Positions 7,706 to 7,983 of a stretch of 30,093 bases of DNA are shown piece by piece. Each line of letters begins with the position of its first letter. Positions within the stretch are counted from its first letter, which is position 1. Made by a program: the position numbers and the translations under genes. This stretch comes from a virus (taxonomy: Duplodnaviria; Heunggongvirae; Uroviricota; Caudoviricetes): positions 1-30,093 of the IMG/VR virus record IMGVR_UViG_2562617113_000015; one strand, given 5' to 3'. The notes under the pieces are model-generated. The model did no database searches, was not told where the DNA came from, and saw only the letters and a program-made list of their open reading frames with translations.

Positions 7706-7734
7706 TTGATTCTGCAATTTCGGGACGTTACACT
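7706..7734 (+). promoter_or_regulatory. Sigma70-type promoter (TTGATT-N17-TACACT) driving the leader upstream of the Rha gene
   Basis: Sequence match read by eye; predicted start near 7741, immediately before a hairpin and conserved box A. Confidence 0.45.
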
Positions 7735-7740
7735 GTTCCG

Positions 7741-7945
7741 GCACCTTATAAAGCGGGTGCCGGGATTGGCGTCCTGAAATTCAATATAGAGCATAACCGC
7801 GCTCATGCGGTTTTTTCGTGTCATGAGCATTGCTACGCCCAAATTATGGTGGGGCGTGCAGGGGCATCGCAAGATGCGCCGGGTTCTATGTTGACCGGTT
7901 ACGCCAACCCTGTACGTCTCACCACCTCTGTGATTGGCGTCCCAT
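7741..7945 (+). ncRNA. Structured leader or antisense-type regulatory RNA module (P1 c4-like architecture), copy 1
   Basis: Box A GGGATTGGCGTCC (7762-7774), hairpin plus T6 (7796-7816), box B GGTTACGCCAACCC (7897-7910, complementary to A), box C GATTGGCGTCCC (7932-7943, a second A-like copy) about 40 nt before the Rha ATG; the whole module recurs at 13001-13190. Confidence 0.4.
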
Positions 7946-7983
7946 GTGGTGAGTTCTTTGAATTCAACATAGGGGCTGTCACC

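What the first reader, a model, noticed from the sequence alone, without database searches (positions are those of the whole stretch)
7706..7983. Promoter, short terminated leader and three mutually complementary boxes upstream of the Rha gene
A promoter (TTGATT-N17-TACACT) is followed by box A, an intrinsic-terminator-like hairpin, box B (the reverse complement of A, 10 bp with one bulge) and box C (a second A copy) ending about 40 nt before the rha start. Box B can pair with either A or C. This is the layout of P1/P7 c4-type antisense control of antirepressor operons, or of an alternative-pairing attenuator. A long ORF reads through the element, but the sequence differences between the two copies are not biased toward synonymous positions, which argues for RNA rather than protein.
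Basis: partly seen in the sequence, partly recalled or inferred. Interest (0 to 1): 0.65.

Follow-up and report, generated by a model that had tools for sequence, protein, structure and literature searches.

The report
C4/IsrK antisense-RNA cassette gating rha
The region is a real but already known kind of phage RNA switch (the C4/IsrK or P4 "seqA-CI-seqC" immunity cassette), in which a small antisense RNA made from the leader of an antirepressor-like gene (rha) pairs with its ribosome-binding region; it is an ordinary new member of that family.

Summary
Window 7741-7817 matches Rfam isrK (61.9 bits, cut-off 50) and 7842-7929 matches Rfam C4 antisense RNA (80.1 bits, cut-off 45). A second complete cassette lies at 12956-13224.

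I add a second triplet: a1 (7782-7789), a' (7886-7893, in a C4 hairpin loop) and a2 (7965-7972, abutting the rha Shine-Dalgarno).

In relatives both triplets co-vary three ways. I found 33 distinct a' loops, each with matching a1 and a2, and b-box swaps in near-identical E. coli prophages. The C4 stems show compensatory changes in 14 of 27 pairs.

The long ORF (7666-8547) shows no codon-position bias upstream of rha, yet its frame is kept open in 39 diverged relatives. This matches the known P4 eta/kil nested-gene design, where translation from an upstream promoter overrides the RNA immunity. Pfam "Phage_ASH" is the conceptual translation of this cassette.

It is a new member of a known kind, of low to moderate interest.

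The parts
7706..7734 (+). Internal sigma-70-type promoter (TTGATT-N17-TACACT); predicted start near 7741
   Evidence: Read directly. Same register as the cassette-2 promoter. The -10 register TAtA.T is conserved in 81 unique relatives. Promoter activity was not tested.
7741..7817 (+). IsrK / P4-seqA-like leader RNA: hairpin 1, hairpin 2 carrying b1 (7762-7774), single-stranded a1 (7782-7789), and an intrinsic terminator (7795-7812 plus U-run)
   Evidence: Rfam isrK 61.9 bits against a cut-off of 50. Terminator scan. Fold. The c4-a1b1 model is only subthreshold here (24.6 against 46.7).
7842..7929 (+). C4-type antisense RNA: 17-bp outer stem, two hairpins, a' in the 12-nt loop (7886-7893 within loop 7883-7894), b' in the single-stranded junction (7897-7910). 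A conserved AUG at its 5' end (7846) is in frame with rha.
   Evidence: Rfam C4 80.1 bits against a cut-off of 45. The MFE equals the consensus structure, z = -5.1. In 41 relatives 99.9% of cells are paired and 14 of 27 pairs have compensatory changes; slid controls give about 40%.
7930..7975 (+). Target region on the rha leader: b2 (7930-7942), a2 (7965-7972), Shine-Dalgarno GGGG (7972-7975)
   Evidence: In relatives a2 sits at a fixed offset and runs into the GGAGG Shine-Dalgarno. b2 co-varies with b1 and b'.
7984..8547 (+). rha: Rha-family (Bro/antirepressor network) regulator, the gated gene. It is the first gene of a run of overlapping ORFs leading into the replication genes (8544-8777, 8758-9672, 9702-10562, 10559-11950).
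   Evidence: Pfam Phage_pRha 95 bits. Clear codon periodicity in 24 relatives, entropy 0.58/0.42/0.98. ORF list.
7669..8547 (+). Eta-like through-ORF ('Ash-Rha'). ATG 7669 overlaps the TGA of lar (TGATG); a second ATG at 7687 follows AGGT. The ORF reads through the promoter, isrK, C4 and b2/a2, in frame with rha.
   Evidence: The frame has 0 stop sites against 20 and 19 polymorphic stop sites in the other frames across 39 unique relatives, and all indels are net multiples of 3. There is no codon periodicity. Relatives have GGAGGT-N6-ATG at the equivalent of 7687. PGAP annotates it as one CDS. Pfam Phage_ASH covers aa 22-116, which is nt 7729-8013.
12956..13224 (+). Second, paralogous cassette: promoter 12956-12985, isrK 12992-13066 (b1 13013-13025, a1 13031-13038), C4 13089-13174 (a' 13130-13139, b' 13142-13155), b2 13175-13186, a2 13209-13217 overlapping the Shine-Dalgarno. 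It has the same b boxes as cassette 1 but different a boxes.
   Evidence: Rfam c4-a1b1 52.2, isrK 79.4 and C4 74 bits. Coordinates. Syntenic with Gifsy-1 Q-isrK-C4-anrP.
13225..13713 (+). ORF6N-domain antirepressor-like gene (AnrP-like) gated by cassette 2
   Evidence: Pfam ORF6N 77 bits; PHROG anti-repressor families.

Best explanation
This is an RNA-based immunity cassette of the C4/IsrK type, the same kind as P4 seqA-CI-seqC and P1/P7 a1b1-c4-a2b2. It is embedded in the early-right operon of a lambdoid E. coli prophage and gates the Rha-family gene.

Shown here:
- The sequence contains a conserved promoter.
- It encodes a roughly 77-nt terminated leader (IsrK-like) carrying boxes b1 and a1.
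- It encodes an 88-nt C4 RNA that presents a' in a hairpin loop and b' in a single-stranded junction.
- Boxes b2 and a2 lie on the rha leader, with a2 abutting the Shine-Dalgarno.
- Both box triplets co-vary three ways in relatives.

Inferred from P1, P4 and Gifsy-1:
- In the lysogen the internal promoter fires.
- Most transcripts stop at the terminator and give the IsrK-like RNA.
- Read-through transcripts are processed (by RNase P in P1 and P4) to a stable C4 RNA.
- C4 pairs with b2/a2 and blocks rha translation.
- The untranslated leader is then probably terminated prematurely, which would also silence the downstream genes.
- The a1/b1 leader competes for a'/b'. In cis it locks the full-length RNA; the predicted MFE pairs a1b1 with a'b'. 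In trans it acts as an anti-antisense decoy, as IsrK does.

The long ORF that runs through the cassette is the counterpart of P4 eta. It is translated only on transcripts coming from upstream (pR-cro-ant-lar) and is coupled to lar. Transiting ribosomes would erase the terminator and the C4 structures. Lytic transcription would then be immune to the RNA switch. Under this view the frame, not the peptide, is what selection maintains.
For: - Rfam hits above the gathering score for C4 and isrK. P4's experimentally defined CI and seqA hit the same two models, as does Gifsy-1 IsrK/STnc1160.
- C4 folds to the consensus structure, z = -5.1. Stems co-vary: 14 of 27 pairs are compensatory and 99.9% of cells are paired, against about 40% when slid.
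- There are 33 distinct a' loops. The cognate a2 complement averages 9.45 nt against 5.54 for non-cognate, and a1 averages 8.48 against 5.77.
- The b triplet is swapped coherently in UTAK-5, MFDS1019527 and P4.
- The full-length fold pairs a1b1 with a'b'.
- Open-frame statistics and the lack of codon periodicity. TGATG junction with lar. Shine-Dalgarno plus ATG at the equivalent position in relatives.
- Literature: the P4 eta/kil/CI logic is summarised in PMC10111431. The IsrK-orf45-anrP mechanism and the roughly 80-nt processed STnc1160 are in PMC4825925. The equivalence of IsrK with seqA and C4 with CI, and their presence in lambdoid prophages, is in PMC3632133. c4 blocking the ant RBS is in PMC12197685.
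Against: - There are no expression data for this locus. Promoter activity, termination efficiency, processing and repression are all inferred.
- The promoter is a weak consensus match (8 of 12) and was not flagged by the scan.
- The c4-a1b1 model is below threshold for cassette 1.
- In Gifsy-1 the short RNA acted as an activator, and over-expressed STnc1160 did not counteract it. The sign of regulation by each RNA species here is therefore uncertain.
- Duplex-energy tests on whole RNAs were not significant.
- Rha's own function, antirepressor or otherwise, is not established.
Confidence: 0.85

Rival explanations
1. Activator logic, as in the Gifsy-1 IsrK model, dominates. The read-through mRNA is intrinsically locked, with a1b1 paired to a'b' in cis. 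The short terminated RNA acts in trans to open it and switch on translation of an ORF that starts at the conserved AUG at the 5' end of C4 (7846). That ORF is fused in frame to rha here. C4 is not primarily a repressor.
For: Experimental precedent in Gifsy-1, whose cassette has the same Rfam anatomy. The predicted MFE of 7741-7990 pairs a1b1 with a'b'. AUG 7846 is conserved across the family and is in frame with rha.
Against: This model does not explain why b2 and a2 co-vary with b' and a', or why a2 always abuts the Shine-Dalgarno. In P1 and P4 the processed RNA is the repressor. The two models are not mutually exclusive.
Confidence: 0.3
2. Protein-only reading. Region 7687-7983 encodes a genuine N-terminal 'Ash' protein domain of a 287-293 aa Ash-Rha regulator, and the RNA-like features are incidental.
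For: Pfam Phage_ASH scores 46.7 bits and several PHROG families match full length. PGAP annotates one long CDS. The frame is kept open, indels are in frame, and relatives have a Shine-Dalgarno plus ATG.
Against: There is no third-position excess upstream of 7984 (0.51/0.56/0.57), against a clear excess in rha (0.58/0.42/0.98). Base-pair compensatory changes and three-way box covariation are not explicable by a peptide. In ORF6N-linked cassettes no frame is open, with stop counts of 50/30/34. Phage_ASH also hits the obsolete P4 'cI protein' ORF that overlies the CI RNA gene, while the real P4 Ash/epsilon protein belongs to another family.
Confidence: 0.03
3. Purely cis-acting alternative-pairing attenuator. 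B pairs with A or with C within one nascent transcript to decide termination or translation. There is no stable trans-acting RNA and no immunity function.
For: B can pair with either A or C. An intrinsic terminator lies between A and B.
Against: The terminator lies upstream of B, so the A/B choice cannot control it co-transcriptionally. Family members P1 c4, P4 CI and Gifsy-1 STnc1160 are stable processed RNAs that act in trans. The strongly conserved tRNA-like 17-bp stem suits a processed stable RNA.
Confidence: 0.07

Closest known systems
Satellite phage P4 immunity cassette (PLE - seqA - t1 - cI/CI RNA - seqC, inside the nested genes eta and kil)
   Same: - P4 seqA and CI hit the same Rfam models, isrK at 60.8 bits and C4 at 74.9 bits.
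- Same order: promoter, terminated leader with box 1, processed RNA with the complementary box, then box 2 before the first translated gene.
- A long ORF (P4 eta, 8168-8812 on the minus strand) starts upstream of the internal promoter, abuts or overlaps the upstream gene, reads through both RNAs and is in frame with the nested downstream gene.
- Phage_ASH hits both through-ORFs.
   Different: - The nested gene here is a 187-aa Rha-family regulator, not the 65-aa Kil/Icd-like peptide.
- The host element is a lambdoid prophage with a CI/S24 protein repressor, not a satellite.
- The b boxes differ (UUGGCGU/ACGCCAA against GUGAGAA/UUCUCAC).
- In P4 there is a much longer spacer between seqA and CI.
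P1/P7 immI: a1 b1 - c4 RNA - a2 b2 - icd - ant
   Same: The antisense RNA is co-transcribed with its target. It has two recognition boxes (a', b') that are complementary to an upstream and a downstream copy. The downstream copy lies at the ribosome-binding region, and the gated gene is of antirepressor type. This is the founding member of Rfam C4.
   Different: Here the box order on the target is b then a. There is no separate icd-like leader gene; the C4-overlapping ORF is instead fused in frame to rha. The P1 sequence itself was not fetched, so details of the P1 boxes are from the literature and from memory.
Gifsy-1 isrK - orf45 (STnc1160) - anrP
   Same: Same Rfam anatomy. The conserved AUG at the 5' end of C4 is the orf45 start. 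Cassette 2 of this window is syntenic with it: Q antiterminator, promoter, isrK, C4, then an ORF6N gene.
   Different: In Gifsy-1 orf45 ends at an AUGA overlap with anrP. In cassette 1 the equivalent ORF has no stop and continues into rha. The frame is also open upstream through isrK. Cassette 1 sits in the early operon, not after Q. No isrJ is found in this window.

Membership tests
Rfam RF01695 C4 antisense RNA | Covariance-model score at or above the gathering cut-off (45 bits), full-length match | tested here: met
   80.1 bits, model positions 1-87 of 87, at 7842-7929.
Rfam RF01695 C4 antisense RNA | Long outer stem enclosing two hairpins, supported by covariation | tested here: met
   The MFE equals the consensus structure. 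In 41 sequences 99.9% of cells are paired and 14 of 27 pairs are compensatory.
P1/P7/P4-type antisense immunity | Recognition boxes in the RNA (a', b') complementary to a downstream target at the ribosome-binding region of the first gene (a2, b2; seqC) | tested here: met
   b'/b2 and a'/a2, with a2 abutting the Shine-Dalgarno. Three-way covariation in relatives.
P1/P7/P4-type antisense immunity | A second, upstream copy of the target boxes (a1 b1; seqA) on the same transcript | tested here: met
   b1 at 7762-7774 and a1 at 7782-7789. Covariation in relatives.
P1/P7/P4-type antisense immunity | Stable RNA of about 77-90 nt produced by processing (RNase P) of the leader transcript; represses the downstream gene in trans | not testable with these tools
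   Needs Northern blot or RNA-seq and genetics. Known for P1, P4 and Gifsy-1 only.
Rfam RF01394 isrK | Covariance-model score at or above the cut-off (50 bits); three hairpins ending in an intrinsic terminator | tested here: met
   61.9 bits at 7741-7817. Terminator. Fold. Hfq binding is not testable.
Rfam RF03163 c4-a1b1 | Covariance-model score at or above the cut-off (46.7 bits) | tested here: not met
   24.6 bits for cassette 1, because the loop of hairpin 1 is divergent. Cassette 2 passes at 52.2 bits.
P4 eta/kil nested-gene design | Long ORF that starts upstream of the internal promoter, is joined to the upstream gene, reads through both RNA genes and is in frame with the nested downstream gene | tested here: met
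   ORF 7669-8547; TGATG junction with lar; rha ATG 7984 in frame. The frame is conserved open. P4 comparison.
P4 eta/kil nested-gene design | Translation of the long ORF prevents termination, making upstream-promoter transcripts insensitive to immunity | not testable with these tools
   Inferred from the P4 literature as summarised in PMC10111431. Forti 1999 is not held.
Pfam PF10554 Phage_ASH (as a protein domain) | HMM score above the cut-off, and evidence of selection on the amino-acid sequence | tested here: inconclusive
   The HMM scores 46.7 bits against a cut-off of 26. There is no codon-position bias in 24 or in 39 relatives. The family is coextensive with the RNA cassette and also hits the obsolete P4 cI ORF.
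Pfam PF09669 Phage_pRha | HMM score above the cut-off in the gated gene | tested here: met
   95 bits against a cut-off of 29.9.

The most novel reading that the evidence does not exclude
In lambdoid (Stx-phage-like) E. coli prophages the cassette may be a second, RNA-based immunity layer on top of protein CI. It would gate not only rha but, by polarity, the whole replication operon that follows it (O-like, DnaC-like and DnaB genes at 8758-11950). It would use a two-box (a, b) address code that is under diversifying selection. I found 33 or more a specificities, and whole b-box swaps between prophages that are 89% identical. The widely annotated 'Ash domain' would then be only the translated shadow of the cassette, kept open so that ribosomes coming from pR can override the switch.
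Probability: 0.3. Interest if true: 0.5.

Novelty: new member of a known kind. Interest (0 to 1): 0.3.

Why it matters
The mechanism adds little that is new. C4/CI/IsrK systems have been described since 1990, and their presence in lambdoid prophages has been noted before.

The practical value lies elsewhere.

1. Genome annotation pipelines label this region 'ash family protein' or one long 'Rha family' CDS and omit the RNA genes. Studies of Stx-phage regulatory regions and of P4-like satellites have treated PF10554 as a protein marker.
2. The cassette sits directly upstream of the replication genes of a common class of E. coli prophages. Matches to the 1.2-kb query (7400-8600, which also spans lar and rha) were found in 1409 of 5426 complete genomes. 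It may therefore influence induction and superinfection immunity.
3. The matched, hypervariable a and b boxes form a natural set of orthogonal RNA-RNA address pairs.

Tried and rejected
- Whole-RNA duplex energies (C4 against leader or target, with shuffles) were uninformative, because intramolecular structure is ignored. z ranged only from 0 to -2.5. I replaced this test with box-level covariation.
- The consensus promoter scan did not flag the proposed promoter, which matches 8 of 12 positions. I kept it because of the shared register and its conservation.
- About a dozen of the 120 viral loci fetched with the 15-specified-base (16-nt) b' pattern were chance matches without a C4 fold. They were excluded.
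- I first read the conserved open frame as unexplained. I considered a real Ash protein domain and rejected it as the main explanation for lack of codon periodicity. The P4 eta precedent then accounted for it.
- Forti et al. 1999 (PMC94026) could not be read. The P4 details rest on the summary in PMC10111431 and on my memory of that paper's abstract.
- Two Pfam calls failed because of wrong frames or coordinates. This exposed that the rha ATG is at 7984.
- I did not fetch P1, did not predict a structure for the Ash peptide, and did not use the large protein searches. None of these would change the verdict.

Full report
CONTEXT. The window is a lambdoid E. coli prophage related to Stx-converting phages. 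Its gene order is as follows:
- a CI-like XRE/S24 repressor (5407-6096, minus strand)
- a small Cro-like ORF
- an ORF6N+KilAC antirepressor (6607-7374)
- lar (7460-7669)
- the finding (7706-7983)
- rha (7984-8547)
- a 77-aa ORF
- an O-like gene, a DnaC-like gene and a DnaB-like helicase
- NinB/RusA-type genes
- a Q antiterminator (12556-12951)
- a second copy of the element
- an ORF6N gene (13225-13713)
- lysis and structural genes

OBSERVATION.
- Promoter: TTGATT (7706-7711), 17-nt spacer, TACACT (7729-7734).
- Box A (b1): GGGATTGGCGTCC at 7762-7774.
- Terminator: hairpin 7795-7812 followed by a T-run.
- Box B (b'): GGTTACGCCAACCC at 7897-7910.
- Box C (b2): GTGATTGGCGTCC at 7930-7942.
- The rha ATG is at 7984, not 7985.

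The 10-mer GATTGGCGTC occurs exactly four times in the window, at b1 and b2 of the two copies. CGCCAACCC occurs only at the two b' sites. The promoter matches only 8 of 12 consensus positions, so the scan missed it. It is in the same register relative to the RNA start as the 10-of-12 promoter of copy 2. The -10 register reads TAtA.T across 81 unique relatives.

The two copies are 60% identical.

IDENTITY. An Rfam scan gave these hits for the finding:
- isrK (RF01394) at 7741-7817: 61.9 bits, cut-off 50
- C4 antisense RNA (RF01695) at 7842-7929: 80.1 bits, cut-off 45, full length
- c4-a1b1 (RF03163) at 7728-7780: 24.6 bits, cut-off 46.7, so subthreshold

Copy 2 (12979-13174) passes all three models.

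The same two models hit the experimentally defined P4 seqA and CI RNA and Gifsy-1 IsrK and STnc1160. C4 alone folds exactly into the family consensus (-46 kcal/mol, z = -5.1).

In an alignment of 41 relatives, 99.9% of cells pair, 14 of 27 pairs show changes on both sides, and slid controls drop to about 40%.

A SECOND BOX TRIPLET. The 12-nt loop of C4 hairpin 2 contains a' (CUAUGUUG, 7886-7893). Its complement occurs twice:
- upstream as a1 (CAAUAUAG, 7782-7789), in the single-stranded spacer of the leader RNA
- downstream as a2 (CAACAUAG, 7965-7972), abutting the GGGG Shine-Dalgarno, which sits 8 nt before the rha ATG

Copy 2 has a different triplet: a' UUCCUUUUUC, a1 GAAAAAGG and a2 GAAAAAGGA. 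There a2 overlaps the Shine-Dalgarno. The b boxes are the same as in copy 1.

I fetched 120 viral contigs that carry the b' core, giving 98 parsable cassettes. The a' loop takes 33 different sequences, 8-13 nt long. In each cassette a1 and a2 sit at fixed offsets and carry the matching complement. The mean longest complementary run is 9.45 nt for cognate a2 against 5.54 for non-cognate, and 8.48 against 5.77 for a1. The a2 box usually runs into GGAGG.

The b boxes also co-vary three ways:

| Cassette | b1 core | b' core | b2 core |
|---|---|---|---|
| This window | UUGGCGU | ACGCCAA | UUGGCGU |
| E. coli UTAK-5 (89% identical, same a boxes) | GUGGAAA | UUUCCAC | GUGGAAA |
| MFDS1019527, first of two tandem cassettes | UCGCAG | CUGCGA | UCGCAG |
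| P4 | GUGAGAA | UUCUCAC | GUGAGAA |

Both a and b act as address boxes.

The predicted MFE of the whole 7741-7990 RNA pairs a1b1 with a'b' in cis. This corresponds to 'structure A' in the Gifsy-1 study.

THE LONG ORF. ORF 7666-8547 reads through the whole cassette in frame with rha. Its first 106 codons match Pfam Phage_ASH over aa 22-116, which is nt 7729-8013 and so exactly the cassette. They also match several PHROG 'regulator' families. PGAP annotates relatives as one long 'Rha family' CDS or as 'ash family protein', with no RNA genes.

Two tests point in different directions.

1. There is no protein-type constraint upstream of rha.
   - In 24 Rha-linked relatives, column entropy at codon positions 1, 2 and 3 is 0.51, 0.56 and 0.57 upstream of 7984.
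   - Within rha it is 0.58, 0.42 and 0.98.
   - The same flat pattern holds in 39 unique relatives of the 12-nt-loop class.

2. The frame itself is kept open.
   - Those 39 sequences have a median identity of 68%.
   - They show 20 and 19 distinct polymorphic stop sites in the other two frames and none in this one.
   - All indels are net multiples of three: 45, 6 and 3 nt.
   - A column-independent model expects 1.3 stops per sequence in this frame.
   - Several hypervariable a' loops contain TGA, TAA or TAG, always out of frame (my reading of the loop list).
   - In ORF6N-linked cassettes, which have 8-10-nt loops and include copy 2, no frame is preserved.

Relatives have GGAGGT-N6-ATG at the position equivalent to 7687. 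In the window ATG 7669 overlaps the lar stop as TGATG.

This paradox has a known solution in P4. Gene eta (214 aa; L121 8168-8812, minus strand) starts upstream of the constitutive promoter PLE and is coupled to the upstream gene. It reads through seqA and cI and contains the nested, in-frame gene kil. According to the summary in PMC10111431 (citing Forti et al. 1999):
- the internal promoter gives a terminated, processed CI RNA
- Kil is made only on read-through
- full-length Eta is translated only from the upstream late promoter
- its translation prevents termination

The window's ORF is the same design, with rha in place of kil and lar in place of the alpA homologue.

In Gifsy-1, orf45 starts at the conserved AUG at the 5' end of C4. 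It was shown to be translated and to be needed for coupled anrP translation, while its amino-acid sequence is not conserved. In cassette 1 the equivalent AUG (7846) is simply in frame with rha.

Phage_ASH also hits the obsolete P4 'cI protein' ORF (59.7 bits). The true P4 Ash/epsilon protein belongs to PF25738. PF10554 is therefore best read as the conceptual translation of the RNA cassette.

MECHANISM. The anatomy and the pairings are shown here. The dynamics are inferred from P1, P4 and Gifsy-1.

In the lysogen:
1. The internal promoter fires and most transcripts end at 7817, giving the IsrK/seqA-like RNA.
2. Read-through transcripts are processed to C4.
3. C4 pairs with b2/a2 and occludes the rha ribosome-binding region.
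4. The untranslated leader is then probably terminated prematurely, as in P1 and P4.
5. The a1b1 leader competes for a'b' in cis and in trans.

During induction, transcripts from pR carry ribosomes through the eta-like ORF. This erases the terminator and the C4 structure, so rha and the overlapping downstream replication genes are expressed regardless of the RNA.

The sign of each RNA's effect is the least certain step. In Gifsy-1 the short RNA activates.

COMPARISON AND NOVELTY. The element passes the membership tests for Rfam C4 and isrK, for the two-target antisense layout and for the eta/kil-type nested ORF. It fails only the c4-a1b1 threshold.

The equivalence of IsrK with seqA and of C4 with CI, and their occurrence in lambdoid prophages, were noted in 2013 (PMC3632133). 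That the P4 CI RNA lies inside a 'Bro-network' gene was noted in 2023. The c4 and c4-a1b1 motifs were catalogued in 2010.

This is therefore a new member of a known kind. The Rha-linked, early-operon version has not itself been studied. A paper on Stx-phage regulatory regions treats 'Rha/Ash' purely as protein domains of unknown function.

Interest is low to moderate.

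Noticed in passing
window 12956-13713: A second complete cassette (promoter, isrK, C4, b2/a2) gates an ORF6N antirepressor-like gene. It is syntenic with Gifsy-1 antQ-isrK-orf45-anrP. It shares the b boxes of cassette 1 but has different a boxes, so partial cross-talk or orthogonality within one prophage is possible. Its promoter starts 5 nt after the Q stop codon (12951), where a lambdoid late promoter pR' would be expected. It is the only promoter-like site found in 12800-13900.
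   Followed up: partly
window 7729-8013; L121 (P4) 8330-8521: Pfam PF10554 'Phage_ASH' is coextensive with the isrK+C4+target cassette. It also hits the obsolete P4 'cI protein' ORF that overlies the CI RNA gene. The real P4 Ash/epsilon protein hits PF25738 instead. A survey of P4-like satellites used PF10554 as its 'epsilon' marker, so it may in fact have detected the RNA cassette.
   Followed up: yes
L122 1788-2100 (E. coli UTAK-5); L123 1788-3301 (E. coli MFDS1019527): Near-identical prophages carry the same cassette with a coherently swapped b-box triplet (UTAK-5). The closest relative, at 98.9% identity, has two tandem cassette-plus-Rha units with different a and b boxes. This suggests modular exchange or duplication of immunity specificities.
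   Followed up: partly
L001-L120 (viral contigs with the b' core): Genes gated by C4 cassettes fall into a few classes: Rha (25), ORF6N (26), Bro-N (about 9 to 11), Kil/Icd-like small proteins (14) and a 77-aa P4-like ORF (13). The through-frame is open only in the classes with a 12-nt a' loop.
   Followed up: partly
window 7846-7848, 13093-13095; L124 1505-1507: The AUG inside the conserved 'AUGG' at the 5' end of C4 is the experimentally used orf45 start in Gifsy-1. In cassette 1 it is in frame with rha, which would give a 46-aa N-terminal extension. In cassette 2 the ORF stops at 13195-13197, 27 nt before the ORF6N start.
   Followed up: partly
window 7934-7979: The 3' half of b2 (GGCGUCCC) is predicted to pair locally with the rha Shine-Dalgarno region (GGGGCUGUC). 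The ribosome-binding site may therefore be sequestered even without C4.
   Followed up: no
window 6607-7374 and 7460-7669: An ORF6N+KilAC antirepressor-like gene and a Lar restriction-alleviation gene lie just upstream in the same operon, without a cassette of their own.
   Followed up: no
window 13789-14371: A strong intrinsic terminator (13789-13810) follows the ORF6N gene. Beyond it lies a 164-aa ORF of unknown function (PHROG 1450), which looks like a moron. No isrJ-like RNA is present, unlike in Gifsy-1.
   Followed up: no
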